Positions 16,821 through 56,930 of a stretch of 64,000 nucleotides of DNA are shown here, one piece after another (the stretch's first letter is position 1; each line of letters begins with the position of its first letter). The notes below the pieces were generated by a model. That model did not search any database. It saw only the letters and a program-made list of their open reading frames with translations, and was not told the DNA's origin. A program made the position numbers and the translations under genes. Origin of the DNA: Smutsia gigantea (lineage: Eukaryota); NCBI GenBank assembly GCA_032199065.1, contig JAVSCE010011590.1, positions 236,551 through 300,550 of the forward strand. The letters are read 5' to 3'.

Positions 16821-16943
<123 letters not shown>

Positions 16944-30989: not shown

Positions 30990-31065
30990 CTAAGGGAGAA
31001 GAGGGCACAGGGTCAGCAGCAGTCACCTGCAACTCTCGTTCCCTTCCAGGTCCCCTAGTCTCTCT

Positions 31066-31234
31066 CCCTGCTCACCTCCAGACATTGAGCTCGGGGTCAT
31101 AGGCCTCCACAGAGTTGAGGGCAACACCCCTGTCTCGTCCACCCAGGGCATAAAGTTGTCCGTCCAGAGCCACCAGGGGAAAGAAGCTCCGAGCCTGGCA
31201 CAAAGGCGCCATCTCCTCCCAGTCCTCTTGACTG
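31066..31234 (-). CDS. KLHL-family gene, internal Kelch exon.
   Basis: Acceptor ctctgtccag then gtgggacc; donor ctggag then gtgagcagg. It translates to (R)WDPSQEDWEEMAPLCQARSFFPLVALDGQLYALGGRDRGVALNSVEAYDPELNVWR. Confidence 0.7.
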
Positions 31235-31355
31235 GGGTCCCACCTGGACAGAGTGGGACAAGAGATGGCAAGAGTGACCCTAGGAGTCTGTGGTTGGCTG
31301 GGCCTGCAATTTCCCTCAGCTCCACTCTGGGGCCTGCCACCCTTGGGGCTCCTAC

Positions 31356-32280
31356 CTGAGAGTGGAAGCCAGAATGTTGGAGTCGCTGTAGAAATCCTGT
31401 CCACCACACACGTAGAGTTCACTTCCTGCTAGGCTAGCAGCCCCATGGCGGAAGCGCCCTGGGGCAGGCAGGGCTGGCAGCTGCCCCCACTCCACAGTCC
31501 GAACCAGTCCCGTGCCACAGCAGAAGGCCCGGGCCCACCACACTGCTCGGGATGGCTGCCTTATGGCCATGTCCGATCGGAGCCCATCCCCGCCAATCAC
31601 TACCAGTGCCTGGTCAGGCTCCCTCCGCCTCTCTTGACCTGGAACCTCAGCCTCCACCATCAGCTGATGCAGCAAGTCAGGCGACAGGGGCGGAGGCAGC
31701 CCGGCTGCCCGTACCCTCCGCAGCTCTCTAGTGGACATACGGCCAAAGCGGACACATCGCAGCAGGGCCTTGGCCTCCGACTCCTGGGTCTCGGGGTTGG
31801 CAGCGAGCCAACACCGTGCAGCCACAAAGGCTTCGAACTCCTCCTGCACATGTAGCTCATCGCTGTCTAGGAGTTCAGCCAGACGGGCAGCCGGTAAAGA
31901 AGGGAAAGTGGAGCACAGAGCCACAGCAGGCAGGTGCATGAGGAGGTAGTGACGGGCTTTGCTCCACAGCCTCTCCAACCCCGGGACTTCAGCCATGGGG
32001 AGCAGGGCCAGGCAACGGGCGGGGCTGAGGCCCTGTGCCAAGGCTCTCTGGCACAGGGCCAGGCAAGAAGCACTCTGGTACTGCAGAGCAGCCTGGGCCG
32101 CTCGCAGCAGTCCTGGCCACCGCGCCCGAATGACCCCAGAGTAGGCAAAAGAGACAAGGAGTCGCAGGTCCTGGGCAGAGACGGTGTGTAGAGACACCTC
32201 TGTCCCCTGGGATTCCCTCATCCCGCTCAGGAGCATGGCCCCAAAGAACTCGCTGCCACAGGCCAGTGCTGCCCGGTGCA
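31356..32280 (-). CDS. KLHL-family gene, large exon encoding the C-terminal half of a BTB domain, the BACK domain and the first Kelch blade.
   Basis: A textbook acceptor (ccctctctgcttctcctccttgcag) sits at 32281-32305; the donor is ctctcag then gtaggagcc. It translates to (V)HRAALACGSEFFGAMLLSG...LVSFAYSGVIRARWPGLLRAAQAALQYQSASCLALC...ARCLALLPMAEVPGLERLWSKARHYLLMHL...ALVVIGGDG...GSELYVCGGQDFYSDSNILASTLR. An in-frame TAG lies 9 codons upstream of the acceptor, so the exon must be spliced. Confidence 0.75.
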
Positions 32281-34379
32281 CTGCAAGGAGGAGAAGCAGA
32301 GAGGGGTCCAGAATGCTGCAAACTGCTAGGCACTATCCCGACTTCACAACCCCGGCTCTGGGCCAACCACCCAAGGCCACAGGCCCAACCATGGTGTGCA
32401 TCAGAATGCCATGGGGTGCTTGATAAAATACAGGTTTCAGAGACCCACCCCCACAGAGTCTGAGTCAGTCACCTGGATGGATACCCTAGGGATTCGTATT
32501 TTAACATTTTCAAGCACCCTGCATGATTCTCATGTTAGTGGCCTGAAGATACTGTGCTAGACATTGGTTTAGTCTTTTTGATCCAAGTCAGTTGGAAAGT
32601 CTTGATGGATCAAGTTGAGAAGATGCTACAGACAGCATTTGAGAATAGACAAAATAAACTGCAGAGACCAGTTGCAACTTATACAGGTCTCTCTACATTG
32701 TGCATGGAATAAAATTCCTTTACAATCTTAAGAGCCATTGACATCAGCCATTCTGTTAGACAGATTATACTCAGAAAGTGATACCACATTCAGGGATGGC
32801 TGTAACCTAACTTCTTCTAACTGACATCTCCTCTTGCCCAAGACCCAGTGCTTAAGATTTTCTATGTATTCTAACTCTTTCCCACACACACTCCACAGCT
32901 GCCCCAGCCCCGCCTCCAGCCCACCCCATCTCAGTATAGGTCATGGAATCATGACTTTTTTTTTGAATCATGACATTTTAAACTGGAAAGCTTTAAAATC
33001 ATCTTGTTCAAATGTTCTTTTTTAAGATAAGGAAACTGAGTCCTAGAGGAAGGAAGGGATCTATTTTCTATTCTATTGGTGGCTCTCTGGACAGATCTTC
33101 ACCACCCACTGTCACTGATGTCAGGCTGTTAGTACCCTATTTATCTACATGACCGACATGACACTGAAACTGTTCTATTAACAAGTGCAGTTAAATAACT
33201 GGACCTCATATGCTTTCTAATTGAGATACTTCACATCAAAAATGGAATATTCTGACCAAAATATTTAATTTAAATCTAATCAAATCTTTAGATCTAATTT
33301 CAAGTTCAAAGGAAATTGAGAGGCTAAAGGAACAAATTAAACAAAAGGGAAAACACACGCAAATCTGGATAACAGATCTCTCAATAGGATAACCTGTCTT
33401 GTTTCTTCAATAGGTCAAATCTGAAAAAAAAAAAAAGGAGAGAGGACAGTACAAGAGTAAAGGAAGCTTGGGTAGTGAACATCGGAGCACAGCATGGTCC
33501 TTGATTGGTTCCTGGGTTGAACAAACCAGCCCTAAAAGAGATTTTTTTGGACAAGTGGGGCAATTTCTGTGTGGATTAGGCAATATCCTTTAATAATAAT
33601 TCCTTTTGTTAATTTTGTTGGACATGATAAAGATATTGGGGTCATATGAGAAACGGTCCTCTTTTAAAGAGAAACACACCCAAGTATTTATGAGTGAAAT
33701 GTCACAGATTTACTTTAAACTTCAGTAAAAGCAAAATAAAATACGGAGATGAAACAGATATAGCAAAATGCTCATTGTTAAGTCAGGGTGATGTTTGTGT
33801 CCTCCTCAAATTCCTATGTTGAAGCCCTAGTCGCTAATAGGTTGGTATTTGTAGGTGAGGCCTTTGGGAGGCTATCAGGTATGAGAGTGAGACCCTGTGA
33901 ATGGCATTTGTGGCCCTATAAGGGGAGACATGAGAGATGATTCTCCCTCTGCCATGTGCGGATACAGTGAAAAGGTGGCCTCCTACAAACCAGGGAGAAG
34001 ACCCTAACTAGAACCTGACCATGCTGGTACCCTGATCTGGGCTGCCGGCCTCCAGAACTGTAAGAAATACCTGTAGGTACAAGACCCAGGCTATTTTTTT
34101 TTAAGTAGCCCAAGCTGACTAAGACAGGATGATTTTTCTTCTGGGAATCCCAGAAACACTTTTGAGTCCCAGTCATTCCTCTCATAGGCTGCAGCTATGT
34201 GACGTCAGACATGTCTTGAAGTCTGACTTCTTTATCAAAGTCTAAGAGCTGAACTAGTTAATCTCTAAGCCAATCCCTTTTAGTTTTAAACTGTTATGTG
34301 TCTGTATTCTGACTCCATTTGCCAGGTCCTGTGTGTCTGGTCCTGTGTGTCTTTGCTTTGGCTGTGTAGAAGGCACTGC

Positions 34380-34590
34380 ATGGCCTAGTGAAAGTAGACT
34401 GGGCTAGTGGGCGTGAGCTTGTATCCAAGTTCTCACCAATTAACATCTCTGAGTTTAATGTTCTTTGTCTGCAACTAGCGATAATAGTACTTACCTCACT
34501 AGTTTTCAGGGAGAATGAAAAGAGATAGCATGTGTGATAAAAACTCGTGGTTCCCAGTACCTCACTAAGTGAACGATCTGAATACTCAAG
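34380..34590. repeat. MIR relic in the KLHL intron.
   Basis: ...tgtctgcaactagcgataatagtacttacctcactagttttcagggagaatgaaaagagatagcatgtgtgataaaaactcgtggttcccagtacctcactaagtgaac matches the MIR 3' half. Confidence 0.5.
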
Positions 34591-35298
34591 GCATGCAATA
34601 CTCCTTAGCTTTCCTGCTGATGAGCAGAGTTGACTTCAAAGTTCCATGGCCTGGGAGCCTTAAGATTCTGGCAAAACAGTACCAGACCCTGCTCATTAGC
34701 TGAAGGATCCACATCTGCCATGGTGTCAAGCACACTTAGGTGAAAGGACACGCTGGTTTTTTTTCTGGCTTTTCCTGTGTCCTAAATAGAAGATGCCAAG
34801 AAGGGCCTTTGGTTAATCCCTGTTTGAGTCAATCACTTTCTGCTTGTTCTACTGGCATGAACTGTACCTTTAGCTCTATCTAGCCAGCGGACTGGAAATT
34901 CCTTGTTGCTGGGCACAGGAAAAGCCACAGTGTGGAAGGTCAGCTTAAATCTGTCTGAGCTCCCAGAAAAACAACTCAACTGCGCATGCCCCGCTCTCAG
35001 TGAGTCAGGAGAGGCACCCAAGGCCACCCCAGGGAAATTCTGACTATAGCGGGGATCAAAACCACTATGGTAGGGATCAATCCACCTGCTGCTGGCACAC
35101 CCCATTCCGGCGGCTTATGCACCTGCAGCGATGTAATGCCACACAGGTGCTCACCCAGCAGCCGGCAGCCACCTGCCTCCAGTTCCAGGTCGCACCCGGT
35201 GCCCTCTTGGTACAGGAGCTCGATGCTGCGCAGGTTCTCCTTCAACTCTTCTGCCTGGCTGGGCTGCTTTTCATCTTCCCGCCTGCCTCCAGTCCCCT

Positions 35299-35689
35299 CA
35301 CGTCTCCACTGGGCCGCGGCCTTCACTCTGGGTGCTCCTAGGGCCTCGGCCGCTTCCAGTACACCCCCCCAAGGGGCGGGGCCCAGCACCCCCTCATAAG
35401 CAAAGGTCAGTACGGCTTCCCAGGCCCCCGGGGCCACGTCGAGACTAAAGGGGGGTCGTGGACCTCCACCGCCCAGCAGCCTGCCTCGGAAGAGGCTGCT
35501 AACCGCAGCCAAGATCACCCGATGCACCCCGTATACTCGCCCCCCGACTGACACCTCTTCGTCCACCAACAGCTTTTGTTCCCGCAGCCGCTGCGCCTCC
35601 GCAAAGAACTGGCTCGGATGCTCCTCGCTGCGCAGCGCTTCGGACTCCGCCCCACCTTCTGCGTCCTCCTCTTCCTCCTCTAGGGACAT
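35299..35689 (-). CDS. KLHL-family gene, candidate first coding exon (ATG at 35687-35689, acidic N-terminus, then a complete BTB-like segment). The 3' boundary is unresolved; a candidate GTGAGG donor lies near 35298 and the track ORF runs on to 34997.
   Basis: MSLEEEEEDAEGGAESEALRSEEHPSQFFAEAQRLREQKLLVDEEVSVGGRVYGVHRVILAAVSSLFRGRLLGGGGPRPPFSLDVAPGAWEAVLTFAYEGVLGPAPWGGVLEAAEALGAP..., embedded in a CpG island. Confidence 0.5.
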
Positions 35690-36560: not shown

Positions 36561-38465
36561 TGTTGTTTTTCTGTGAACAATACTGAGGTGAAATGCAAAC
36601 GTAACCAGGCTGGGTCCACCGAGGGCGGAGGTTGGGGGAAGTAAAGGGAGGGCGGTCAGGGCTAGGATCCTAAGTGACCGGGATTTCTTCCCAGTCCCGA
36701 GGTAGGTTCGGTGGTGAAACAGCGAAACCCAGCCCTGCGTCTTCAGAAGGAAGGAGTCTGAGGGAATCTGATCTCACCTTGGTCGCTGGGATGAGGACCA
36801 ATCTCCGCAGCTGCGGGGACCGGAGTCCAGGGCTGGATGGGCCGGGGGCGCGATACCGTTTTTTTAAATTGAATAATAGTTCACGTACAATGCTATATCA
36901 GTTTCAGGTGTGTAACACAGTGACCCAAACTCGCTGTTTGAGGCAGGACACCAATAGCCACCTCCTCTGCCAGGGCCAACACTCCTTCCTCATCTTGAGA
37001 CACCCCTAATTCTGGGCAATCACTTTTCACTGCAGTTCATTTACCTTCATGCGGAAGGAGTTGAGGGAAGCGGCATCGCTGCCCCTTCCCTGAGGAAGAG
37101 GTAGGGACAGGTCAAGGGCTGCTGGGGGCGGATACCCTGTCCTTTAATAAGACTGGTCCAGGCTGGATAGATAGGACAAGCTGGCTTAACCAGGGATAGA
37201 AACACGATTGTCTCTCTGCACTCAGGTGAGAAGGGTGGTGCTCATGTGGGGGGGGTGGGGGTGGGGCGGGAAGGTGGGCTGCTCCGCACAGCACCCTCCT
37301 CCAGCTTTGGGGAACTGTCCCCAGCTCCCCACTTGCCGGTTGGGTACCCGCGCCCACCCAGAGGCAGAGCAGTGTAGCTGCGTGCTGCACTCCCCAAAAT
37401 GGTTCAGTGGAGAGAGGCAGCCTGTGATTGCCTGGACAGAAGGGGCGATGATGACCAGCCTCTACACCCTCTCCCCCATCTCAGACATCTCGGACCACTC
37501 CTATGGCTTCCTCGCAGCAAGACAACGCGGCCAGCACCATGAGTCCCCATCTTGAAGAGAAGGAGCCGCCATACCCCAGGTCGGCATCTGCCCTCCCACC
37601 ACCTGAAAGGACAAGAACACTGGGCCACACTCTGAGTCCCATGCCGGCTCTACAGTCCTGGGACAGCTTCATTGCAGTGAGACTCCGGAGGCTCTGTGCA
37701 GCAATGCCACGGTGAGACCCACGACCCCCCAGTGAACACAGAAGGCTGGATAAAGCCTGCTGTTCTGGGCCATCAGCCACCCTCCATTAAGGCCCTGGGA
37801 CTGACCTCCCCCCATAGCACCTCCAAGTATGTTAGCTGCGGTCCTGGTCCCTGACTTAAGAGCATCCGTGCTGTCTTAGTCACACGAGAGCACAGCATCC
37901 ATCTCCACAGAGGAGCCCCACACCCAGCCGCACCCCCAGAAAGAGGATCTGGATAATTCGTGGGCCAGGCCTGACAAGGCCCAGGGCTGCCTCACCGGAG
38001 TCATGGTACTGGGTGATGCTCAGGGTTCCCCGAGTTAGGGGATCTAGGTGGGGGAGAGAACGTCACTCCGGAGGGGCTCTTGAAGGGTGGGGCTGAGGGT
38101 GACCCCGGTTCCTCACTCACCATCCTACTCTCCTAGACATGCTGTCTGCTCAAGAGCTGGGGCACCACCCTCTTCCTGCGGCCGCCTTCGATCACTGCTC
38201 AGGCGGGCATAGGTGTGGGCTCAGGGCTCTGCTGGGTAGCAGGGGTTCAGGGACCCTGGGAATGAGTTAAAGGGTCCCTATTCCCATCTCCACCCCAGGG
38301 CTCACATGGCTCATTACTCTGCTCTCAGCTTCAGTCCATACTATCCCCAGCCTGTCTATCTCAGCCATTTCCACCAACTGCCAAGGCAAGGCTGGTGAGT
38401 CTGCTGCAGTTCCATCATCTCTCAGGGTCCCTGGTTCCGTCAGATGCAGCCAAAACCACATCTTC

Positions 38466-38516
38466 CTCTCCTCTCCTCTCCTCTCCTCTCCTCTCCTCTC
38501 CTCTCCTCTCCTCTCA
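38466..38516 (+). repeat. (TCTCC)n pyrimidine microsatellite that forms the polypyrimidine tract of the 38518 acceptor.
   Basis: tcctctcctctcctctcctctcctctcctctcctctcctctcag. Confidence 0.85.
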
Positions 38517-38867
38517 GGTGGCAGGTACTTCTTTATCTTGCACAGCCTGGTTCCCGAACTTGGCGAATCCATCGGGATCATCTTCGCTTTTGCCAACACA
38601 GTAGCTGTGGCTATGCACACAGCAGGCTCTGCAGAGACCCTTTCGGATCTGCTCTGGGTAAGGCCCATCCCTCCTTTGGTTGAGTGCAGCCTGCAGTCAT
38701 TTTAAGAATCAGATGGAGGCATCAAATCAGAGAATGAAGTCTCTGTGACCCTCTACCTCTGCCTTCCAGGAACATGGGGTGCAGCTGCCAAACATGGATC
38801 CCAAAAATGAGTTTCGGGTGATGGGTGTGGTGACTATGACCATCCTTTTGGGCGCGGCACTGGCCGG

Positions 38868-38932
38868 TATGGAGTGTGCGTGTGTGTGCGTGTGCATGTG
38901 TGTGTGCACGCGTGTGTGTGTGTGTGTGCAGC
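38868..38932 (+). repeat. (GT/GC)n dinucleotide microsatellite directly at the 3' end of the 38770 exon.
   Basis: atggagtgtgcgtgtgtgtgcgtgtgcatgtgtgtgtgcacgcgtgtgtgtgtgtgtgtgcag. Confidence 0.85.
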
Positions 38933-41900
38933 TGGCACAGCAGATTCCCAGGGGCCGAGACCTGCACCTGGACAGTTTTGCTGGAGGAGACTCCACACAC
39001 CAATTCCTCAGGGGACAAGTAAGGAGGACTCATTCCGAGGCTCTGCTGGGGCAAGCACTAACAGGGCTCCCAGATAAGAAGTGCCCTGTCACCTGCTCCC
39101 AGATATTTACAGTCTTGAGATGTGCCCCTCTGGCATGGGAAGGGACACTGCAGTTTGAGGCAAGAAAGAAAAGGACACCATTTAGCCAGACTCTGGGGAA
39201 GAGGCTGGCGGGAAAGGGAACCAGAGGATGGGAGAGGAGAGGGAAGATGAGACAAGGAGAGGGAGGAGGTGAAGTAGTTACTCCTTCCTTTCCACTCATA
39301 TTTCTCCTGTTTGTTTGTTTTTATCTCCCATAGTATATAGGCCCAAATGATCTCCTTCTTCCTGATCCTCCTCTCTTTTATCAATTACCTTCTGGGGACA
39401 CTCCTCCCCACACACCCCAGCTGACAAGCCACTGGCTTCTTTGGGTACCAAGGTAAGTCAGTGGGAAGCTGGCTGAGAAGTGCATTAAGGGGCATGAATG
39501 CCTCAGAATGTCATTTTTCCTTGGAGCAGGGGACCTCATTAGCCCAACCCTCCTCAGAAAAGCCCCCTTCACTCTGATTCTATATGCCATCTGCGATCAT
39601 TAGGAGACCTCTAAGTCCCTGGGCTGGCTAGTTTACAAACTTCCCTTCTTCCCAGCTCAGCTAAGTTACTGACACTCAAGTGTGTAGAGGGGTAATGGTG
39701 TTGGCTGAATGAAGGGAAGCCAGGAGGTTCTACTCAAAACACCATCTTTTCTCTCTGCTCCTTTGTAGGAAGTATTTTCTTGGAAAATACAGTGCCACAG
39801 CGGCATGGTCCAGAAGGCAGCTTCTCGGGCATGTTTTCCATCGTCTTCTCCTCAGCCACTGGGATACTTCCCAGGACCACTATATCTGGCGACCTTAAGG
39901 TGAGAAGGATGTCCAGGCACAGAGCACACACTCTCTCCCCTCCTCTACCTTCACTAATAGTTCAAGTTTTGTTCCCAGGACCTTGCTACTGCTATCACCA
40001 AAGGAACCCTCCTCGCCATCATGTGGACCACACTTTCCTACCTGGGCATCTCTGTCACCAACGGTAAGGCCCTCCACTCCTGCCTACTGTGCACCGTGAC
40101 CTGGAACCTTTGATTTCTGCTTCTCTGAGGAGCTAGGGTATAGGTGATGAAATGAGCAAGTGGCATTCATCAATCACATTCAAAGTAGTTTACCCCCCCA
40201 CCACCAACATTTCTCCCCATCCCTCATTTCATTAATGAATTGTAGGGCATTCTTTGAGCATCCAATTTCATTACCCCCCAACCCACCATGCACACATACT
40301 TCCAATCTCCCCTTTAACATGAATGGTACCCAGATAGATCTACTGTGTTGGGATGGGGGTCTCTCCCCATGAAGGGGTGTGCATCTTTTATCTCATTTCC
40401 AGGTTCCTGTATGATTCGAGATGCTTCAGGAAATATCACTGACATGGGTGTGCAGAATGGGAGCTGCATGGGGCCAGAGCGTCAGTATGGCTGGGATTTC
40501 AGCAGTTGTCGAGAACAAAGGACCTGCCACTATGGGCTCTCTAATTACTACCAGGTGAGTGAACCAGAGAAGAGTAGGGAAATAAATCTTACCTAGCCCA
40601 TTGTCCAGCACAGAGAAGATGCTCAAAGGGAAGTAATGACTTAAGTGAATTCATGTGCGTGGGGTAAAACTCTCAAAAATGGAATAAAATATAATACACC
40701 ATGCAACTTCTGGGAAAGCAAGGTAAAAAGATGGGTGGAATGCCTTGCTTCTGGAATGCACTGATTTCTGCCTCTGCCTGCCATTCTCCACAGGCAATGA
40801 GCATAATACCTGCTTTCAGCCCCCTGACGTCTGCTGGAATCCTCAGTGCCACTCTGTCCTCTGCCCTTTCCTGCTTTGTTTCAGCCCCTAAAATCTTCCA
40901 GGTTAGTTGGTATCTTACCAAGAGGCTTTGGAGAGAAAGGAGAGAATGTACATAGACAGTGCCATCCCAAGGTATAATTTTTGGGGGAGGAGGAGCAAAA
41001 GAAGACCCAGTCTCAGCAACCAGGGCCTACATGGTGACTGAGGGAGATGGAGATGACTGTGGTTGGCTGGTGTTTAAGAGACAATCTAAGTTCATATAGC
41101 AACATTCAAAGTCTGCCCATAAATCAAGGCAAAGTCTGGGGAGGGATCACTCTTCCATCTGCCTCCTCTGTTTTTCCCACCTCACATTCTCAGGGATGTC
41201 ACTACACTCTATTCCATCTATCCATTCTTCCTTTTAAGACCCCTAAGCTCCCTCGGCTCTTCTCTCTGTACTCCTCACTCCCTCTCACTGCTCTGGAGGA
41301 GCAGGGGGCTGTCATTCTCCCTCCTCCTGGGACCCTCCCCAATGACAGCCATGCCTTTGTACAGCGGCTGTGCCAGGATAAGCCATACCTGGTCATCGGC
41401 TTTCTGGGGAAAGGCTATGGCCAGAAACATAAGCGTGTGCGAGGCTGTCTGTCCGCCTTCCTCATGGCTGCAGCTTCCTCCTTGCTGGCAAGCGCTCCTC
41501 CTCCACCCAGGCTCATTGACCGCCTTTCCCCTCATGCCCCCCACTCCCTACCTAAAGCATCTTTTCTCTCTAGTCCTGAAAGTGGGTGGAAACACCTGCT
41601 AACTTGGTGGCAGTGGTGGTGTTTGTGATGGTGGGGTGGGGAGTAGGGAACAGGGAGTGCAGGGACGGGGAAGCCCGAAGATGTCCTTAATCCCCTAGAC
41701 CTGGATCCCATGACCCAGTTTGGAGACTAACCCCTTGACCTTTCATCTCTCTCAAAGCTGATCTGAACACCATTGCCCCCAACATCTCCAACTTTTTACT
41801 CTGTTCCTATGCCCTCTTTCCACGCTCCCTTCGTCAGTTGCCTGGTTAGTATGGGCAGGTGTTGGGGTCAGGCCCAGGGCTGGGAGGACCTGGGAGAATC

Positions 41901-44900
41901 GGAGAAGCATCCTTGAGGTGCAAGGGTGGGTGGTACTGAGGCTGGGACAAGGGACGGGTTGCATTTGCTCTCCTCTGCAGGCTGGCACCCCTCCTTCCGC
42001 GGGTACAGTCCCTGGCTTTCCCTCCTGGGCTCTCTGCTCTGCCTGCGCATTCTGTTCCCCCTCACTTGGTGGGCAGTGCTCATCGCCATGTTGCTTAGCC
42101 TGCTGCCGCTGCCGTGTGCGTTCTACAAGAAGCCTGGTGAGTGACAGGGCAGGTAGCTACGGGAGTGAAGGAGTGAGACACAGCAAGAGGCTGACCCCCA
42201 CTAGAAGCCCAGAACTATCCCACCTCTAATGGTTCTGCACCACCCCTTCCTCTGCGCAAACATGAGCGGGGGCCCTGTGGTCCAGGCGGCCTTCTGTCAC
42301 ATGGCACTGTCCTACTCAGTGAACCCGACCAATGCGCAGGACCATATCAGGAACTTCCGGTAAGGGAGTCCCTACACAAGCGCTTGAAACCTGGTGGCAT
42401 CTGGACTGCAAATGGGTTTTGTTCAGATTACACAGCATTTAAAATTTCTAAATTAGTTGCCAACATTATGTATCTGGGGTCCTGGCGCTCCATCCACATG
42501 ACACACTTGGCTGGAGCCAACAGCGGCTGTCCGATGGGATACGGCAGGTACTCTCCAGTTTGTCACAGTTCCCACCTGGTTCACTTCATTCTTTGTTATT
42601 ATATGACTGGTTCTTGCAGGCTTTGAGTTTTCAATTCCTGCTCTAGACTAAAAGGAAGCCAGTTTCCTAAAGTCTGGCAGGGGCAGTGGAGGAGAAGGAA
42701 GGGAACAGAGTCCGAGCTGGGTAGAGATGGGTTCCCTGAGGAGGGGGTTCTCCATGGCAGGACAGATGCTACAGGATCTGGGTCCCAACCTCCCTCACTG
42801 GGTTGTGAGGTGGAGAGGCCTCTCTAACCCTCATGGTTTCTCCCTTAAAATCCTCTATAAAATCCCCCATTGGGTGGGGAAGAATTGCTTACTGCTTGAA
42901 CATTCCCCTACCTCTTTCTCCATAGGCCACAGTGCCTGGTTCTCACAGGTCCCCCCAGCCAGCATTCAGCCTTGGTGGATTTTGTGGGGGCCTTCACCAA
43001 GAACACGAGTTTCATGATCTGTGGGAATGTGGTCTCGGTAAGAGAAGTGGGAATGGGAGGGGACTGGGTTGGAGATTCTAGACTGGAGGGAAATAAAAGG
43101 AATGAGAAGATCCACAGGTCAGTGGGCTCAGGGAACCTGAAAAGTGTGAGGGTCAAGCAGGATGCTGAGGGACTGTCCCCAGCCTATATTTCTGCCTCCC
43201 CTTCTTAGGACCCCCAAGCTACTCAAGAGTCCAAGAATCACGTCAAGTGGCTCAATGTCCAGAAGGTTCATTCATTATACGGTCATATCTGTCCCCAGGC
43301 TACGTTCTGGGGCACAGAGCCTCATGCAGGTCAGCTGCCACACTGCATCCTTCTTGTCACCCTTTTGCCCAGCGTGTCATATCCCCTTCTTTCCTTACTG
43401 CCTCTCCTTTCAGGTGGCAGGTCTGGGCCACCTGAAGCCCAATCTGCTGGTCTTAGGATATAAGGAGAATTGGCAGGAGGTGCCAATACCAGCTGTGGAG
43501 GACTGTGTTGGCATTCTGCGGTAAGCGCTGGGAGGAAAGGTGAAGATGGGCTTAGAAATGGTGAGGAGCCAGAGGAAGAAGAAACACAATCATGGTGAAG
43601 CCCTTTTCTCTCCAGCTGCTCAGCAGCCCCTATATGCCCAGGAAGGGGAACATCCCTCTCGTCAGCTCTTGCTCCTAATCTCCTTTTTTCTTCCCCATAA
43701 AGAGATGCCTTTGACCACAACTATGGTGTCTGTCTCTTAAGGATGCCAGGGGGGTAAGCCTGGCTACCCAGCTTCAAACTCAAGGTGAGTCAAAAAGGAG
43801 TGGGCCTAAGAGGAGGATAAGGTGTGGGAGGTATAGAGACTGGCCGTCAAAGACAGTCAGGGAGCCAAGGGCGCTCGTTTAGTTACCAAGGCTTGAGGCT
43901 GAAGAGAATCAGGTCCTAGGATGTGAGAAAAATGAATTTCACTTGGAAGATCCTACCTATAGGCTTAGCTCTCCTGAAACCTTAGGGATGGGGGAAAGCT
44001 CTCAAGTTATCTTCTCAATTCAGGGGGCAGAAATGTGAATTAGGAGATACCAAGTGGGAGGGTGAGGGAGAGCTGGAGGGTGGTCAGGAAGGATATGGCC
44101 CAATCCCAGAGCAGGATGTCCGGCACTATTCCAGTCCTATACTACCACATCGAACTAGCTTACACTTGGGGGTCCTCACTGAATGGCTGGGCTCAAGGAA
44201 GGATGCAAAAGACAACTTCTTTTGCATTATACCTCCACATTTCCCAGTAAATCCAAGGGGTTTGGATACCATAGGTATGGATACTCAGCAGGGAGAGGAG
44301 ATGAATCCTAAAACAGGGTTTTAGAGAAAACAGTTTTGGGAAGTGGAAAGAGTAGTAGGCACCCAGTAAAATGGACAGAAAAGGGAATGTGGTTAGTCAA
44401 TGGAGAGAAAAGCCATATGGCACTTCTGTGGGATAGCAACAATTTTCTTCGGGGAGAGGGGAGGTATGATATTCAGTTGGGAGTAACTGCTCAGCTGGGT
44501 AAGGAATTTGTCTCATTCTTTCCCTTTTTCTTCTTGGGCAGTATCCTTACACTGGCAGCCTCGAACCTTGTTCTGCTCCAAGCAGGGCCGGTGGACAGTG
44601 GACGTGTACTGGCTCAGCAGTGATGGAGGTATTGGACTCCACGGCTCTCGAAAAAGCCCCAACTCCTCTCCAAGTTCCAGAGAACAAGAGTGGGAGGACA
44701 GGGATATAAAAACTAGGGAGGACTTCAGAACAAACTCTGCATTTACCAAGTACCCAATGCTCTCCTCCTACCTCAGAGGCCTTTGCTCTCTTCCCAGTCC
44801 CCAGGGATAGTGGGCAGGGAGGCTGCCTTCCTCGCCTCCCCTCCTCACAGGGCTGATGCTGCTGAGCCCCTTTCTACTGACGCACAAGAAAAACTGGGCT

Positions 44901-47410
44901 CAGTGTCCCGTAAGAGTTTTTGTGAGCAGTCCCCCTGAGTATCTGGAGGAGAAACACACCAGTGAGCAGGACATGAAAACCCAAGGTTATGCCTAAAGTG
45001 CAGAAGCCAGGAAGGGGAGGGGAGGGTGTTGGGCCACTTGCCCAGATGGAGGGATAGGAAAAGGTGCTGGGAAATGTAGGCAAATGTCCGGTTCCTCTCT
45101 CGTCTTGCCCTAGGATACGTGCCCTCCTCAGAAGGTTCAGGCTTGGCTCCCAGCATGTGACTCAACTACCTGACCTCACAGGCAAACCTCAGGACATGAG
45201 ATCAGGACCCAGCCCCTGCCCCAGGGCACTCCTGCTCTGCCTGCCCTCCTTCTTCACAGAATAGCAAGGAGCAAGTGTCAGACAAGCTATATTCTAACAA
45301 GCAGTGGGAGGAGGAAGTGAACCTTGAGGACTGTGGTGGGGAGTAAGCACAAGTAGCTATGGGCTCTACTTACATCAGAACGGGGTTATTCTTACCAGTT
45401 TGGAAAAATCAAGGATCTTAGGCAGCAAAACAGAGAAAAACTGTAAAGTGAGGAAGCTTTATTTTTCCTAAATTCCTAAGGCAGACATTTCAGGGAAAAG
45501 ATACTTCCTGCTCCTTGCTGAATCTAGAGTTTCTTTCTCTGCAGCCAAAAGGCTTTCAAAGACCTGGTGGCCTTACACCAGTTGCAAAAAGCACCACCAA
45601 AAGGGAGACTTGGAATCTACTTCTCTGAGCACTCCTGCTCCTTCAGGCTACATCTCTGAGTGGGATCTGCAGGCAAACCAAAAGCAGGTACATAGGAACA
45701 GGGCCAGCAAGTGGGGCAACTGTCTCAGAGTACAAGCTGATAATGGCACATACCCTGCCCTCTGCTCGGTCTTCCCAACCATGTAGTCGGAGTGGCACAT
45801 GTGTCTTCGTGAAGTCCTATGGCAATATTCCCAGGACGCTGCCCTCATAGTTATGTGAGTGTGGGAAAATGCCAAGCTGCAGGGCAAAGATCCCAGGGGT
45901 AGGGCTGGACCAAAGGCTAGATAAGCTGAGAAACAGGCCGCATTCCTCACGCTGCCTTCCTTAACAGGGGCCTGCCTATGATCCCTCGGTCAGCCTGCCC
46001 TGGGGCCCTGTGCATGGCCTGGCTGGAGATGCTGTCCAGGGGCCTGACACCCCCCATTGCCTTCATCCATGGGCATCAGCAGGACACACTGCCCCTGTAC
46101 CACCAGTGAGAGACTGAGGAGAGACTGAGCCCGGAGGAGAGGCCCACACCTCAGCGCTCAAGGAGCCATGATCTTGGCTCAGCAAACTTGGCGGGGCTGT
46201 CCTTGGGAGGCCTCAAGCAAGAGCCCAAAGCTTCCTAGGAAAGAACTTCCATTCTGAGCGACACCGAAGGGGTGACAGTGCTAAGGAAGATCCTCCATCT
46301 CACTCCATGACATTAATAAAAGCCTAATACCCAAGGCTAATGTGTAATAATATGCTTGGTTCCCATTTATAAAATCAACTCCCCACGCCTGCAGGGAAAG
46401 AGATCATTCCTGTTCTCAAGTATTTTCAAGGAGAGGAATTTATCTTCTATCTCCATCCCAAACTGTTTCACCCCTAAGTTTCTGATTTTGAAATTCGATG
46501 TTTTAGCACATGTTCGACCATTTATGGGTCTATACTTGGTAAATGAAAAAGTGTTTAGCACCACTTTCTACTTAATAACTCATCAGAAACTTACTCTTTT
46601 CCCAACCTCATATGATCTCAATTCTTTTTACCTTTCAGCTTATCTCCCCCATCAGCTTATTCATTCATTCAGCAAATACTAATTCAATGTCCACAATGCA
46701 CCAGATCCTATTCTAAGTACTGGGAAATGATATGGTGATGAATGTGACAGGCTAGTGATCCCCTCCTCTCACAGAGTTTATGTTCTAATAGGAGAAGATA
46801 ATAAACATAAAGAGAACTTTAAGATTAGAAGGTGATTAAGCACTACCAAGAGAAACGAAACAGGGGAGGGGGCTCGAAAGTGCTGAAGAAGTGCAATTTT
46901 AAGTAGGTTTGTCAATTTTAAGTAGACCTCACTGAAAAAGAAAAAATGTTGAGACAGACTTAGACATGGACTGAATTACATCTGAGGGAAGAGCTTCTCA
47001 GGCAGCGAGAGCAACAAGCATAAAGACCTTGAGGGGCCAGCACAAGCCCACCTTCAGTGTGTAAAGAAAACCCCAAAAGCCAAATTTGCTGGAGCAGAGT
47101 GAACAAGGTGGTAAATACCAAGAAATAAGGTCAAAGCAGTAAATAGGGAGGGGTGGGGCAGATCCTGGAGGGCCTTCCAAGGACTGGTTTTTACTCTAAT
47201 ATGGGAAAACACAGAGGATTTCGAGAAGAGTGACATAATCTGGCTTCTGTGTGAACACTGTTCACTCTGGCTGCTGTGTTGAGTATTGCAAGTGGGCAAT
47301 GATGGAGGCAGACAGACCGGCTATTGCAATCATCTTGGAGATGGATGATTCTGGCTCAGTCTAGGGTGGCAGCAGTGGAAGTGAGGAGAAATGGGATTCT
47401 AGATATATTC

Positions 47411-47640: not shown

Positions 47641-50538
47641 AGATGTATTCTGAAGGCAAAAAAGTTAATGAGATTTGATGAACTGGAGATGAAAAAGAGG
47701 TGTCAAATACCAAGGTGCTTTGAAATGAACAACTAGGATAGAGCTGTCATTAACTGAAATAGGAAAGCCCGCAGTAGTAAGTTTGGGAAAAAAGTTCAAT
47801 TCTGTGTATGTTAAATTTGAGATGCCTATTAAGTATCCAAGTTGAGAATCCAAACAGGAGCTAGATATTCAGGACAGTAGTCTGGGTTAGAGCTAAAATA
47901 TTGAGAGTCATCCCCACTAACAAGATTTTAGTAAGACTGGATGAAATCACTGCACATACATGTGTAACTAGAGCAGCAGTCCGCGGACTGAACTCTAGAA
48001 AGTGAATAGACTGTGAGACATGGCGAAACCAGCAAGGGAGACTAAGAAAGAGCAGTCAGTAAGCTAGGAGGCAAACCAGAGAACAGGTCCTAAAGCCAAA
48101 CAAAGAAAATGTTTCAAAAGGAGGTATGTCAAATGCTGCTGACAGCCTGTGTAAGATGAAGCAGAATATGCCATTTGATTTAGATATGTGCAAGTCATTG
48201 GTGACCATGATAAGAACAGTCTTGGTGGGATGGACTTAATAGGGAACTGGTGGAGAGAACTGGAGACAACTCTAAGATATTTTGCTGTAAAATGGAGTAA
48301 AAAAATAGGAAGCAATTGGAAGGGGAAATGGGAGCAAGAGCGGCTTATATGCCTGTGAAATGAGAAAAATGATGGCATTATTTGTGTGATGATAGGAAAA
48401 TCCAGGAAAGAAAGGGAAATATTGACTCTGTTGAAAAGGAGGATGAACTGTTGAGAGATGTCCTTAAAAGCTAGAGGATGGGATCTACTGTACAGATGTT
48501 TGCACAGGAGCATGGAGTTTGTTTATAACAGGGTTTCACAACCTTGACACTAACAATTTAGCCTAGATAATTCTTTGTTGTGGGGGAAGGTTCTGTGCAC
48601 TGAATGTTATTTCGCAGCATCCACGGCCTCTACCAAGTAACACTGCCTCCCAGCTGTGTCAACCAAACGTCCTCGGGGAACAGAATCACTCCCAGTTGAG
48701 AAACACTGGCATACAGTAACAGGAGGAGAAGCGGGGCACATGGGTATGAATGCTAAAAAGTGATTAGATGTAGTGATGGGAATTTGTGGAATATTTTTTT
48801 CTTGCTTTTATTTTCTCACTAAATTAAGGACCCAAGTAGGAGTGAGAATGGGGAGAGATGTTGGAGATTTGAGGGGTCAGGAGGTATGAAACAAGTTACA
48901 GGAAAAGATGGTGAATGAAAGAATTAGGGAATATTGCTAGGTAACATAAAAGACACACTTAAGTTGCATGGTAAATTTAAAGCCAGCTACGTCAGCTGCT
49001 TTCGCTAGCCCTTTCAGCTGCATGGGTCTAGGCATAAACTACGTCAAAAATTGAGTATGACAAAAGCAAGAGAGAGGCAAGGGAGATGAGGTGTGTGTGG
49101 TTAAAGTGCTCATGACTGGAATTTAGCTGGAGGAGGGAAATGAAGACATGTGGGGGATAAGGGTCAGAAGAAAGGAAATCAATGGACTGTAAGTCCCAGT
49201 GAAGGGATGAACTATTTGATTCAGTGCACTGAAGGGAGGGCACTGGGAAGACAGGAGGTAATGGTGACAGAGTGGGGTGCTTGGGACTGAGATACGGAGG
49301 AGTTGTAGGTCCCGAACAGGCCCAAGGGATTGAGTGGCTGAAGTGGGGGTGGAGGACAAGACCACACCAAGATCACAGGAGAAGCGAAGACTTAAGAGAC
49401 CAGAGCATCAGAAGGATGATGCAGAGGGGTACTGAAATCACGGCCACCGCTAGAGGCACTGGGAGAAGCAGAGACCTCAGGAGTAACCAGGGCTCTGAGC
49501 AAGAATGTGAAGAGAACATGCAGAGAAAGGTGGAGGATACAGGGAATTGTGCTAATTGAAAGTTGGTGAATACAGGGAATTTTGCTAATTGCCTGTTAGT
49601 TTCAGAGAGCACAGAAGAACTTCAGGTGTTGGAAGAGGAAGGTGGATGGAGAGTAATGGTTACTGAAGTGTAAAAGATGAGAAGTGACTTGGTAGTTCGG
49701 GACGTCTTGTGGTGGGCATGATGAGACTGGTTCTGGCAGTCATGGTGGGAAGGATGGAGTCCCCCTCAAGCCCGCCAATGAAGTGTTCGTAGGAGACGTA
49801 GGAGTCAGTGTATGGAAGAGAAACAGTTCTACTCTTGAGTTACAAATTAATACAAAATTAGAGGTGGCTCCAGCCCATTTTGAGGGAAGTCCTGAGTACT
49901 TACCTCAAAGAATTTAAATGAGATGATGAATGTAAAGCAGTTAGCACAAGGTCTGATACTAAAATTATATTAGTTATGATACTACTGTTATGAAGCGGAT
50001 GTTAGAAGAGTACATGAGATATCCACTCAATCTCAGCTCCAGAGCAACAGCCCCCAAGGCGACATGCAGTCAGCCAAGGTGCGGCTCTGACTCCTGCCTC
50101 CAGAGCCATTCACCCCAGCAGCAAGAATTTATCCAGGGAGAACTTTGTATTACTCTTGCACAACACAAGTCTATTAACAACATACGAAACCAAAATTATT
50201 TTATTGCTGAGTCAACTTGAGGTTCAAGTGGATGGGAAACGGGAGTCCCTAGCCTTGCCAGGGCTCCCATGTCAGCATAGAGATTAAGGCCCAGGGCCCC
50301 TGAGGCTCCACCAAGGGCATTACTATCCACTCTGATCCTGACAATCTCGTTAATCCCTCCAGGTCACTTCTACTTCGTCTGTCCGATACCTGTAAAAAGA
50401 ACAGGAAAAACTTGGTGGACAGCTATCCCTTGGCATCTTCCATTCTTCTCACCACTCATGAATCTGGACCCTCTTTCCTGCTGACTTTCTGCCTACCTCC
50501 CATATAACCCTATCCAACCCTTTCCAGGGGGATGTTCA

Positions 50539-50736
<198 letters not shown>

Positions 50737-50739
50737 TCA

Positions 50740-50844
<105 letters not shown>

Positions 50845-51030
50845 TTAGTTTTGGCCATTTCCCCATGGCTGGGCTGTACACTACATGTGCATTTACTTAG
50901 GAAAATGAAGTGGAGGTGTAGGGGGCAAAGACTGGGAAGCAAAAACTAGTATTTCTCAAAGCCCTTAGAGATCCAGAATATCAAGAGGAAGGTGCCCATG
51001 CCCAAGAATAGGGAGGAAGAGCACAGCTCA

Positions 51031-51249
<219 letters not shown>

Positions 51250-54200
51250 TCAGGAGTACACTTGCCTGTGGCCAGCATCCGCTGGGCTGCATCCTATGAT
51301 TAAAGAGAAAGCAAACAGATAAAATAATGAATAGTAGACTCTTCTCCTGAAGCCAGGTCAAAAGAGCGACGGGACCACTGCTAATTTCAGGAAAAAACCC
51401 ATTATTGTAGAACCACTGCTGACTCTGAGGCCAGTGCAATTGTGGTGTGTCTTTCACCACGTTCTGGGCAGCTTGTCAGCAAACCACACGTGCCAAATGA
51501 GGCAGGAAAATCAACTGAAAGGCTGTCAGCCAGCTTTCCAGTATGCAAAAGTTGAAGGTTAACTGGGGAAAAAAGGCTCCTAGGAAGTTCACTAACAAGG
51601 AATAAATAGTTTGGTGGGCACAAGGTTTAAGCAGCAGAAACTCATTTTCTCATAGTTCTAGACGCTACAAGTCCAAAATCAAAGTTCCAGCTGATTTGAC
51701 TTCAGATAATCATCATAGTTCTGTATGCAGAAGAAGTGCTTTGAAGGACTGGATTAAAGATGGCAGCATGAGAGGTGAGACAGAGACCTCCTCCTAAAAG
51801 CACATATAATATGAAAATATAATTTAATACAACTAATCCTGAAAGAGCAACAGGAAAGAAGGCTGCATCAGACTGCATACACCCAGAAAAAAAAGAGCAG
51901 ACCTAACGGAACAGGGTAACGTACCAAAGCTGTGACCCGGCGAGGCCCAAGCCCTTTCCCTACCCCAGCTCACTAGCAAGAGGAAGAGAAACAGAGCAGG
52001 CAGGGAGTGGAGGCCTGGGGCCGCTGAACACCTAGCCCCAGAGATCTGCTCTGGGAGCATGAACCTACACTGCATGGTGCTATGGTGATTTAGTGTGGTT
52101 GGAAAGCTAAGACAGGCAGAATACCTGGAAAGATGGAGATTCCAGGTGCTTGTGGAAAATGGATTCATGTCTGGCTGATCTGGGTGGGCAGTCTGAGAGA
52201 CTTCCTAAAAGCGAGAGGGCTGCTAAAGGGGCAAGGATTGCACAGAGCTTAATGCTCAGGAGAAAGGACAGGTAGACAAAACAGTCTGGGTGCACTGTGC
52301 CCAGCAGGTTGGGAGCTTAAACGATCTTCAGGGGCTCCATCCCACTGGCTGGCTATGCAGCTCCAAGGCCCCCCACCATGATACGCAGCCTGCTGTGTCT
52401 TCCTCCCGGCTAGACTGTACCTGGATCAGGCTCGCAAACCGGCAACCCCTGCCCAGGCGTCAGGCCAGACAGAGGGAAGCCCCACCTATGGCAGCTACAA
52501 ACACAAAGCATAGAGGCTTACACCCGTGTGTTCAGCCCACTGGTTCTGGCAGTGTGGACAGGCATAGCAGCTGGGAAGCAGGAAATAGCTCTTTCCTCCC
52601 CCCAAGCACCAACACCGCTCCCCTGTGACCACCAACATTGCTCCAGGGGCTGAGCAGCTCCAGAAAGTAGAGCTTCTGGGCACTAAAGGGCACCACAGAC
52701 AAATTATGAAACGTCAAAGGAACCTGGTTCAAAGCAAAATTATGAACACACCTGAGAAAGATTCAAAGAAAATCAACCTCATGAATCTGTCTGAAAGAGA
52801 TTTCAAAATAAAAATCATTAACATGCTCATGGAGGTACAGAAAAATATTCAAGAACTCAGGAACGAATTTAGGATGGAGATCCAATCATTGAAGAACACA
52901 ATGGAGGGTATTAAAAGCAGATTAGATATGGTGGAGGAGACGATAAATAAAATAGAAATTAGGAAAGAGGAATACAAGGAAGCTGAGGCGCAGAGAGAAA
53001 AAAGGATCTCTAAGAATGAAAGAATATTGAGAAGAACTCTGTGACCAATCCAAGTGGAACAATATTCGTATTATAGGGGTACCAGGAGAAGAAGAGAGAG
53101 AGAGAGAGAAATTGTCTTTGAGTAAGTAATTGCTGAAAACTTCCCCAATATGGGGAAGAATATAGTCTCTCAGGCCATGAAAGTGCACAGATCTCCCAAC
53201 ACAACACCAAGACATATAATAATTAAAATGGCAAAGATTAAGGATAAATAAGGACAAACTATTAAAAGCAGCTAGAGAGAGAAATAAGATCACAAAATAG
53301 AAAACCCATCAGGCTATCAGCAGAAATCTTACAGGCCAGAAGGGAGTCGCATGATGTATTTAATGCAATGAAGCAGAAGGGCCTTGAACCAAGAATACTT
53401 TATCCGGCAAGATTATCATTTAAATTTGAAGGAGGGATTAAACAATTTTCAGATAAGCAAAACCTGAGAATTTACCTCCCACAAACCATCTCGACAGTGT
53501 ATTTTGGAGGGACTGCTATAGATAGAAGTTCCTAAGGTTAAATAGCTGTCACCAGAGGTGATACAAAGGGTTAGACAAAGAGTACAGAATATGATACCTA
53601 ATATATAAAGAATGGAAGAGGAAAAAAGAACTTTAAATGGTGTTACCACAAATCTAAAGCCTGCAATGGCAATAAGTACATACCTATCAATAATCACCCT
53701 AAATGTAAATGGTCTGAATGCACCAATCAAGACACAGAGTCACTGAATGGATTAAAAAACTGTATGCTGCCTACAAGAGACTCACCTCAAACCCAAAGAC
53801 ATAAAAAACCTAAAAGTGAAGGGATGGAAAAAGATATTTCATGAAACTAATAGGGAGAAAAAAGCAGCTGTTGCAGTACTTGTAACAGACAAAACCGACT
53901 TAAAAACAAAGAAAGTCACAAGAGACAAAGAAAGACATTACATAATGATAAAGGGGTCAATCCAATAAGACGAAATAACCATTATAAATATCTTAGCACC
54001 CAACACAGAAGCACCTACATATGTGGAACAAATAGTAACAGAATTAAAAGGGAAAATAGAATGTAATGCATTCATCCTAGAAGACTTGAACACTCCCCTC
54101 ACACCAAATGACAGATCAACCAGACAGAAAGTAAGTAAGGAGACAGAGGCATTGAACAACACATTAGAACAGATGGACCTAACAGGCATCTACAGAACAC

Positions 54201-56805: not shown

Positions 56806-56912
56806 TGTTTTTTTTGTTTTGTTCTGTTTTTTTTTGGTTTTCTTTTTTGTTTTTTCTTTTCTTTCTTTTTGACTTTCTTTCCTTCTTTTTTTTTCTCTTT
56901 TTAAAGTCTTAA
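56806..56912 (+). repeat. T-rich, (TTTTC/TTTG)n-like low-complexity block inside the L1-D 5'UTR, immediately upstream of ORF1.
   Basis: gtgggtgttttttttgttttgttctgtttttttttggttttcttttttgttttttcttttctttctttttgactttctttccttctttttttttctctttttaaag. Confidence 0.8.
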
Positions 56913-56930
56913 AGAGCCCAGCTGACATAT

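What the first reader, a model, noticed from the sequence alone, without database searches (positions are those of the whole stretch)
43209..43329. Exon-internal frameshift in the SLC12A3-like gene
From the acceptor at 43208/43209 the exon reads DPQATQESKNHVKWLNVQKVHSLY, which parallels NCC ...HTKWLNKRKIKAFYS. The NCC-like continuation (Y)TVISVPRLRSGAQSLMQ, paralleling DVIAEDLRRGVQILMQ, is in the +1 frame. The shift falls near 43270-43285. Both halves are needed to reach the next exon (VAGLGHLKPNLLVLGYKENWQ) in phase. This indicates a 1-nt insertion (or 2-nt deletion), a second disabling lesion.
Basis: seen in the sequence. Interest (0 to 1): 0.6.

Follow-up and report, generated by a model that had tools for sequence, protein, structure and literature searches.

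The report
Two-base deletion in SLC12A10 pseudogene
The frameshift is real: a 2-base deletion in one exon of a decayed copy of the salt-transporter gene SLC12A10 (NCC2, not SLC12A3) in a pangolin-like genome, one of about 14 disabling lesions in a gene already known to be dead in most mammals, so it is ordinary.

Summary
Exon 43209-43329 is 121 nt. Its first half reads in frame 0 and its second half in frame +1. A four-species DNA alignment places a 2-nt deletion (TC/CT of TTCTAT) at 43276/43277. The orthologous exon is 123 nt and in frame in Manis javanica, donkey and echidna. With ortholog-like splicing the shift gives a TAA at 43461-43463.

The interpretation needs two corrections. First, the gene is not SLC12A3. 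It is the ortholog of SLC12A10 (NCC2/NCCbeta). It lies between KLHL33 and OSGEP, as the intact gene does in donkey, and next to OSGEP as in echidna. It is 64-70% identical to horse SLC12A10 against 47-48% to true SLC12A3, and groups with horse and donkey SLC12A10 at 100/100 bootstrap. Second, this is not a second lesion but one of about 14 in the window: two nonsense codons, seven other frameshifting indels, three splice-site changes and a deleted exon end.

dN/dS against M. javanica is 0.83, against 0.11 for donkey versus echidna. M. javanica carries about 18 lesions of its own, and none is shared with the window.

Pseudogenisation of SLC12A10 in most mammals is already published, so this is an ordinary lesion in a known kind of unitary pseudogene. 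The only mildly interesting point is that the two pangolin lineages decayed independently.

The parts
43209..43329 (+). Exon carrying the frameshift. It is block 16 of my exon numbering and corresponds to horse SLC12A10 residues 634-674. It is 121 nt here and 123 nt in orthologs.
   Evidence: Acceptor CTTAG|G, donor CAG|GTCAGC.
43275..43277 (+). Site of the 2-nt deletion. Ancestral CAT TCA TTC TAT ACG (H S F Y T) became CAT TCA TT/AT ACG. Placement is ambiguous by one base because either TC or CT could be the lost pair.
   Evidence: Four-species alignment A1, pairwise blastn, frameshift-aware alignment. Re-inserting CT restores ...KVHSFYTVISVPRLRSGAQSLMQVAGLG....
43461..43463 (+). First in-frame stop (TAA) caused by the shift if the three exons are spliced as in orthologs.
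42924..43037 (+). Upstream exon ([38 protein letters not shown]), ending in phase 0.
43414..43520 (+). Downstream exon (VAGLGHLKPNLLVLGYKENWQEVPIPAVEDCVGIL), in the +1 frame relative to 43209.
37503..46109 (+). Whole SLC12A10 (NCC2) unitary pseudogene: ATG at 37503, terminal TGA at 46107-46109, about 25 exon blocks colinear with donkey SLC12A10.
37567..37606 (+). Exon 1 lesions: a 13-nt deletion after 37567, and TGA at 37604-37606 in the ancestral frame.
   Evidence: Alignment A2.
37991..37992 (+). A 9-nt in-frame deletion removing part of the conserved FGWV motif region. It does not disrupt the frame.
38876..38930 (+). The 3' end and donor of exon 5 are deleted. The exon is fused to a TG microsatellite that in M. 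javanica lies about 280 nt further into the intron.
39422..39424 (+). Nonsense codon TGA. Donkey has CGA and M. javanica has CAA.
41473..41489 (+). A 1-nt deletion (GG to G at 41473), and the donor changed from GT to GC at 41488-41489.
41816..41826 (+). A 14-nt deletion (junction 41816/41817) plus a 1-nt deletion near 41826.
42258..42259 (+). Acceptor changed from AG to AA.
43755..43755 (+). A 1-nt deletion (TT to T after the G6 run).
44959..44961 (+). A 1-nt deletion at the 3' end of exon block 20.
45201..45202 (+). Donor changed from GT to AT.
45599..45602 (+). A 1-nt insertion (AAA to AAAA).
30440..35689 (-). KLHL33, the upstream neighbour. It is intact: the 533-aa isoform is 476/533 identical to human.
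50353..51257 (-). C-terminal exons of OSGEP, the downstream neighbour.
   Evidence: (Pfam TsaD 6.7e-21). Orthologous region of L001 annotated with TsaD.

Best explanation
The window carries the decayed, non-functional remnant (a unitary pseudogene) of SLC12A10, the second Na-Cl cotransporter gene of vertebrates (NCC2/NCCbeta). It sits at its ancestral position between KLHL33 and OSGEP, in a genome about 10% diverged from Manis javanica. That distance suggests an African pangolin, but this is an inference.

The flagged feature is a 2-bp deletion inside one exon. It lies in a short TCAT-repeat context, which fits replication slippage. It shifts the reading frame by +1 and would end translation 17 codons into the next exon.

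It has no function. It is one of about 14 independent disabling mutations that built up after selection on the gene was lost. All of them arose on the window's own lineage after it separated from the M. javanica lineage.

Shown by tool results: the deletion, its polarity, the orthology, the other lesions, and near-neutral dN/dS. Inferred: the slippage mechanism, the species identity, and the timing of the loss of constraint.
For: Frameshift and polarity:
- establish the frameshift and show it is a deletion.

Orthology to SLC12A10:
- The best protein hits are horse SLC12A10 (64-70% identity) and the monotreme SLC12A3-like proteins (58%). True mammalian SLC12A3 reaches only 47-48%.
- In an NJ tree the window and M. 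javanica group with horse and donkey SLC12A10 at 100/100, and with the monotreme genes at 100/100. They sit apart from true SLC12A3, including donkey SLC12A3.
- Synteny is KLHL33(-)/gene(+)/OSGEP(-) in the window, in M. javanica and in donkey. Echidna has TEP1/gene/OSGEP/APEX1/TMEM55B.

Pseudogene status:
- The window has two nonsense codons, seven further frameshifting indels, three splice-site changes and loss of one exon end with its donor.
- dN/dS is 0.83 for window versus M. javanica and 0.11 for donkey versus echidna.
- Branch-specific omega is 0.93 on the window branch and 0.80 on the M. javanica branch.

Literature:
- slc12a10 is functional in horse and platypus, and is a pseudogene at the same locus in various mammals. 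This is Motoshima et al. 2023 as summarised in PMC11145369 and PMC11381001.
Against: - No raw reads or second assembly of this species could be consulted, so an assembly error at this one site cannot be formally excluded. The site is not a homopolymer.
- Expression was not testable.
- The Motoshima paper itself was not readable. I therefore could not confirm from the paper that the published locus is KLHL33-OSGEP, or whether pangolins were among the species examined. The locus was established here from the donkey and echidna contigs.
- The donkey reference has an in-frame stop in part of exon 1, so the equid gene is not a perfect intact reference for that exon.
Confidence: 0.93

Rival explanations
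1. The 2-nt gap is a sequencing or assembly error, and the real exon is 123 nt and in frame.
For: No reads could be checked. Two of the other single-base indels in the window lie in or next to short homopolymer runs (43755 after G6, and AAAA at 45599-45602). This is the sort of place where assembly errors occur.
Against: - The site is TTCATTCATT|ATAC, which is not a homopolymer.
- The same gene carries many lesions that are not typical error types. These are 13-, 14- and 9-nt deletions, two TGA codons from point changes, three splice-site substitutions and a roughly 300-nt deletion of an exon end.
- dN/dS on this branch is about 0.9, so a frameshift here is expected.
Confidence: 0.05
2. The gene is SLC12A3 (the thiazide-sensitive NCC) itself, or a recent duplicate of it, being inactivated in this species. 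This would be physiologically remarkable.
For: - Human NCC aligns along the whole gene.
- The M. javanica fragment model is labelled 'Solute carrier family 12 member 3'.
- NCBI names the orthologs 'SLC12A3-like'.
Against: - Identity to true mammalian SLC12A3 is only 47-48%, against 64-70% to horse SLC12A10.
- The tree places it with SLC12A10 at 100/100, apart from donkey, human and mouse SLC12A3.
- The neighbours are KLHL33 and OSGEP, as for the intact donkey gene, and OSGEP also flanks the echidna gene.
- From my own knowledge, the neighbours of SLC12A3 on human 16q13 are NUP93 and HERPUD1. This is recalled, not tested.
Confidence: 0.01
3. The locus still makes a protein. The frame is rescued by a cryptic acceptor (AG at 43217-43218) or by other alternative splicing.
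For: Starting the exon at 43219 gives an open 111-nt exon that joins the next exon in phase.
Against: - That rescue replaces 19 conserved residues with out-of-frame sequence.
- At least 13 other disabling lesions lie upstream and downstream. They include a 13-nt deletion 65 nt after the ATG and two nonsense codons.
- Evolution is near-neutral.
Confidence: 0.01

Closest known systems
SLC12A10 (NCC2 / NCCbeta) pseudogenes of mammals (Motoshima et al. 2023, Physiol Genomics 55:113, as summarised in PMC11145369 and PMC11381001)
   Same: Same gene and same chromosomal neighbourhood as the intact equid and monotreme genes. Same fate: loss through frameshifts, nonsense codons and splice-site mutations at the ancestral locus.
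   Different: I found no held paper that mentions pangolins together with slc12a10, so this lineage may not have been described explicitly. Here every ORF lesion is private to one of the two pangolin lineages compared.
Functional SLC12A10 of horse and donkey, and the SLC12A3-like gene of platypus and echidna
   Same: Exon-by-exon colinearity over about 25 exon blocks. Splice phases are the same. The flagged exon is 123 nt in those species, and the residues after the shift are 16/17 identical to horse.
   Different: Those genes keep an open frame apart from a stop in part of donkey exon 1. The window copy has about 14 disabling lesions and omega near 1.
SLC12A3 (NCC, the thiazide-sensitive Na-Cl cotransporter)
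   Same: Same subfamily. Pfam SLC12 C-terminal domain and the same overall exon pattern.
   Different: It is a paralog at a different locus. Identity is 47-48% only, and it forms a separate clade.

Membership tests
SLC12A10 (NCC2/NCCbeta) orthologous group | Closer in sequence to SLC12A10 than to SLC12A3, and groups with it in a tree. | tested here: met
   64-70% identity to horse SLC12A10 against 47-48% to mammalian SLC12A3. In the NJ tree it groups with horse and donkey SLC12A10 at 100/100 and with monotremes at 100/100. The tree is midpoint-rooted with no NKCC outgroup, and deeper non-mammalian relationships are unresolved.
SLC12A10 (NCC2/NCCbeta) orthologous group | Conserved synteny with the intact gene. 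| tested here: met
   KLHL33(-)/gene(+)/OSGEP(-) in the window, in M. javanica and in donkey. Echidna has TEP1/gene/OSGEP/APEX1/TMEM55B.
SLC12A10 (NCC2/NCCbeta) orthologous group | Conserved exon-intron structure. | tested here: met
   24 exon blocks plus the 5' part of exon 1 align one-to-one with donkey exons, with matching boundaries.
Unitary (unprocessed) pseudogene | Frame-disrupting mutations relative to intact orthologs at the ancestral locus, with introns retained. | tested here: met
   Two nonsense codons, eight frameshifting indels including the flagged one, three splice-site changes and one deleted exon end with its donor. Introns are present.
Unitary (unprocessed) pseudogene | Relaxed selection (dN/dS near 1). 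| tested here: met
   NG86 dN/dS is 0.83 for window versus M. javanica and 0.11 for donkey versus echidna. Branch omega is 0.93 and 0.80. With about 30 synonymous changes per branch, the standard error is roughly 0.2.
Unitary (unprocessed) pseudogene | No functional paralogous copy of the same gene elsewhere, and no translated product. | not testable with these tools
   Only one 64-kb window of this genome is available, and there are no expression data.
SLC12A3 (NCC) ortholog | Located at the SLC12A3 locus and groups with SLC12A3. | tested here: not met
   It has different neighbours and lies outside the SLC12A3 clade, which includes donkey SLC12A3.

The most novel reading that the evidence does not exclude
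SLC12A10 still had an intact reading frame in the last common ancestor of the two pangolin lineages compared, and was then lost independently in each. If so, a second Na-Cl cotransporter persisted in stem pangolins long after most placental lineages had lost it.

The support is the lesion pattern. The window has about 14 lesions and M. javanica about 18, and none is shared across the coding exons and splice sites that could be compared.

With roughly 15 lesions per terminal branch, zero shared lesions limits any neutral period before the split to less than about a fifth of a terminal branch. This is a Poisson 95% bound and my own inference.
Probability: 0.4. Interest if true: 0.3.

Novelty: new member of a known kind. 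Interest (0 to 1): 0.15.

Why it matters
It matters very little for biology at large. It is one more neutral lesion in a gene already reported as pseudogenised in most mammals.

It has practical value for annotation:
- The locus should be labelled an SLC12A10 pseudogene. It should not be called 'SLC12A3', as the fragmentary M. javanica model is, nor read as evidence that the thiazide-sensitive NCC is damaged in pangolins.
- The lesion catalogue, all of it private to one lineage, gives a small dated marker set for when this transporter was lost in Pholidota.

Tried and rejected
- **1-nt insertion.** Rejected, because three outgroups have two extra bases.
- **Different acceptor putting both halves in one frame.** Rejected. 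The only frame-restoring AG (43217-43218) discards the homologous first half.
- **False frameshifts from my aligner.** The aligner reported a 'frameshift' at 38013. The DNA alignment showed this was an artefact of fitting intron sequence. The real event there is a 9-nt in-frame deletion. It also reported a small indel at 44592 that is not real.
- **Reading the Motoshima 2023 paper.** Tried by DOI and by PMC id. It is not held.
- **Literature search for slc12a10 with OSGEP, KLHL33 or TEP1.** Nothing relevant.
- **Species identification.** A KLHL33 protein search returned no pangolin-labelled hit. The species therefore stays inferred.
- **Four-taxon parsimony with echidna to polarise stem changes.** Discarded as biased, because synonymous sites are saturated (dS about 1.3).
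- **First protein search with the 115-aa exon peptide.** It found only fragments. The full conceptual protein was needed.

Full report
**1. The observation**

The window is mammalian genomic DNA. Between 42.9 and 43.6 kb on the + strand lie three small exons with good splice sites.

- Exon 42924-43037 reads [38 protein letters not shown]. It ends in phase 0 before GTAAGA.
- The flagged exon runs from 43209 (after CTTAG) to 43329 (before GTCAGC) and is 121 nt.
- Exon 43414-43520 reads VAGLGHLKPNLLVLGYKENWQEVPIPAVEDCVGIL.

Frame 0 of the flagged exon gives DPQATQESKNHVKWLNVQKVHSLY followed by unrelated residues. Frame +1 gives YTVISVPRLRSGAQSLMQ, and only this frame joins the next exon in phase.

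tblastn with human NCC gives two HSPs in different frames over this exon. The description and the coordinates are therefore correct.

**2.

I wrote a protein-to-DNA dynamic-programming aligner. It allows introns, codon gaps, stops and frameshifts with steps of 1, 2, 4 or 5 nt. I ran it with horse SLC12A10 (P0028) against 37.0-46.5 kb.

It needs a frame change exactly at 43276-43277. Identity is 15/23 before the shift (DPQATQESKNHVKWLNVQKVHSL against EPQAIQESENHVNWLNVRKIRSF). It is 16/17 after the shift (YTVISVPRLRSGAQSLM against YTVISAPRLRSGAQSLM). No single-frame solution exists.

**3. Polarity of the lesion**

I obtained the orthologous exon from three other genomes through the exact-protein look-up:
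- Manis javanica (L001)
- Equus asinus (L002)
- Tachyglossus aculeatus (L003)

In all three the exon is 123 nt and in frame. The four-way DNA alignment shows one 2-nt gap in the window: TCATTCTATAC in the others against TCAT--TATAC here.

The ancestral codons CAT TCA TTC TAT ACG (H S F Y T) became CAT TCA TT|AT ACG. The event is therefore a 2-nt deletion (TC or CT) between 43275/43276 and 43277, not a 1-nt insertion. The local TCAT-TCAT-TC context fits slippage, which is my inference.

Spliced as in the orthologs, the shifted frame reaches TAA at 43461-43463. Putting CT back restores ...KVHSFYTVISVPRLRSGAQSLMQVAGLG....

**4. What gene this is**

Human NCC aligns along the whole locus from about 38.1 to 46.1 kb, but at only 40-60% identity. 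That is far too low for a mammalian SLC12A3 ortholog.

A database search with the conceptual protein gave these identities:
- horse 'solute carrier family 12 member 10' and its full-length form: 64-70%
- echidna and platypus 'SLC12A3-like': 58%
- amphibian 'SLC12A3-like': 49-50%
- true mammalian SLC12A3: 47-48%

In a neighbour-joining tree the window and M. javanica sequences group with horse and donkey SLC12A10 in 100/100 bootstraps, and with the monotreme genes in 100/100. They lie outside the SLC12A3 clade, which contains donkey, human, mouse, bat and possum SLC12A3. The tree is midpoint-rooted with no outgroup, and deeper nodes are unresolved.

The neighbours agree:
- In the window, an intact KLHL33 lies on the minus strand at 30.4-35.7 kb. 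Its 533-aa isoform is 476/533 identical to human.
- OSGEP exons lie on the minus strand at 50.35-51.26 kb (Pfam TsaD, 6.7e-21).
- The intact donkey gene lies between KLHL33 and OSGEP.
- The echidna gene lies between TEP1 and OSGEP-APEX1-TMEM55B.
- The M. javanica fragment lies between KLHL33/TEP1 and OSGEP.

So this is the SLC12A10 (NCC2/NCCbeta) ortholog at its ancestral locus. It is not SLC12A3.

The literature states that slc12a10 is retained in horse and platypus. It also states that a pseudogene sits at the same locus in various mammals. This is Motoshima et al. 2023 as summarised in PMC11145369 and PMC11381001. The primary paper was not readable.

**5. The source species**

The window aligns to the M. 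javanica contig over 30.7-55.4 kb at 87-91% identity, and synonymous divergence in this gene is 0.12. This is a pangolin-like genome well separated from M. javanica, most simply an African pangolin. That identification is inference, and my attempts to name the species failed.

**6. The flagged lesion is one of many**

Three-way exon alignments (donkey, window, M. javanica) show these changes private to the window:

| Position | Lesion |
|---|---|
| after 37567 | 13-nt deletion, 65 nt downstream of the ATG at 37503 |
| 37604-37606 | TGA in the ancestral frame |
| after 37991 | 9-nt in-frame deletion in the conserved FGWV region (not frame-disrupting) |
| 38876/38877 | loss of the last codons and donor of exon 5, now fused to a TG microsatellite |
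| 39422-39424 | TGA (CGA in donkey) |
| 41473 | 1-nt deletion |
| 41488-41489 | donor GT to GC |
| 41816/41817 and ~41826 | 14-nt deletion plus 1-nt deletion |
| 42258-42259 | acceptor AG to AA |
| 43276/43277 | the flagged 2-nt deletion |
| 43755 | 1-nt deletion |
| ~44959 | 1-nt deletion |
| 45201-45202 | donor GT to AT |
| 45599-45602 | extra A |

That is about 14 potentially disabling events. The flagged one is roughly the tenth in 5' to 3' order, not the second.

Two 'frameshifts' that my aligner reported, at 38013 and 44592, were artefacts. The DNA alignments corrected them.

**7. Selection**

Codons were aligned in the donkey frame. Nei-Gojobori dN/dS values are:
- 0.83 for window versus M. 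javanica (829 codons)
- 0.45-0.48 for either pangolin versus donkey
- 0.11 for donkey versus echidna

Three-taxon parsimony gives omega of 0.93 on the window branch, 0.80 on the M. javanica branch and 0.43 on the combined pangolin-stem and donkey branch. Each terminal branch has about 30 synonymous changes, so the error is about ±0.2.

Both pangolin copies have therefore evolved essentially neutrally since they separated.

**8. An unexpected detail**

M. javanica carries about 18 lesions of its own:
- three stops in exon 1
- deletions of 16, 8, 1, 4, 1, 4, 2 and 1 nt
- a 1-nt insertion
- two donor changes
- loss of most of one exon
- three further stops

None of these coincides with a window lesion. 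The ATG is kept in both species.

At roughly 15 lesions per terminal branch, zero shared lesions means the reading frame was still intact at the split, or had been free to decay only briefly before it. Either the gene was lost twice, or the first hit was regulatory and lies outside what I compared. This is the only mildly novel aspect, and it rests on two genomes.

**9. Rivals**

- *Assembly error.* This cannot be excluded for the single site without reads. However, the site is not a homopolymer, and the gene's status does not depend on it.
- *Cryptic acceptor.* An AG at 43217-43218 would restore phase, but it replaces 19 conserved residues. Given the other lesions this is irrelevant.
- *Damaged SLC12A3.* This reading is refuted by identity, tree and synteny.

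**10. Verdict**

It mislabels the gene and undercounts the lesions.

The feature is an ordinary neutral mutation in a unitary pseudogene of a gene already known to be lost in most mammals. I found no held paper linking pangolins to slc12a10, so I rate it a new member of a known kind, of low interest.

Noticed in passing
window 37503-46109 compared with L001 6758-15530: The window copy and the Manis javanica copy of the SLC12A10 pseudogene carry about 14 and about 18 disabling lesions respectively, and none is shared. This suggests the reading frame was still intact at, or shortly before, the split of the two pangolin lineages.
   Followed up: partly
L002 (Equus asinus) about 10520-10540: The donkey SLC12A10 locus has an in-frame TAG (KAPLC*GWVMGVM) where the horse protein P0028 has F, inside the conserved FGWV motif of exon 1. 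Annotated donkey isoforms skip this segment. The equid gene may be variably compromised at its 5' end.
   Followed up: no
L001 10001-14018 (protein P0003): The M. javanica GenBank model named 'Solute carrier family 12 member 3' (166 aa) is a chimeric reading of SLC12A10 pseudogene exons mixed with out-of-frame or intronic sequence. It is a mis-annotation by similarity.
   Followed up: partly
window 38874-38930 and L001 about 8400-8516: A TG/GT microsatellite lies in intron 5. In the window it directly abuts the truncated exon 5, consistent with a roughly 300-nt deletion ending in the repeat.
   Followed up: partly
window 13112-24115 and 52600-63300: A-rich stretches (AT skew 0.3-0.4) hold several LINE-1 copies on the + strand, with ORF1- and ORF2-like open frames. 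Two copies (13.1-17.0 kb and 18.7-22.6 kb) both match the same L1 in the M. javanica locus at 81-88% identity.
   Followed up: no
window 47280-48208: About 930 nt are present in the window but absent from the aligned M. javanica sequence, between the pseudogene's 3' end and OSGEP. The adjoining 48-50 kb bin has an unusually high GC skew (0.35).
   Followed up: no
window 38464-38515: A perfect (TCCTC)x10 repeat lies in the intron just upstream of exon block 4 and forms its polypyrimidine tract.
   Followed up: no
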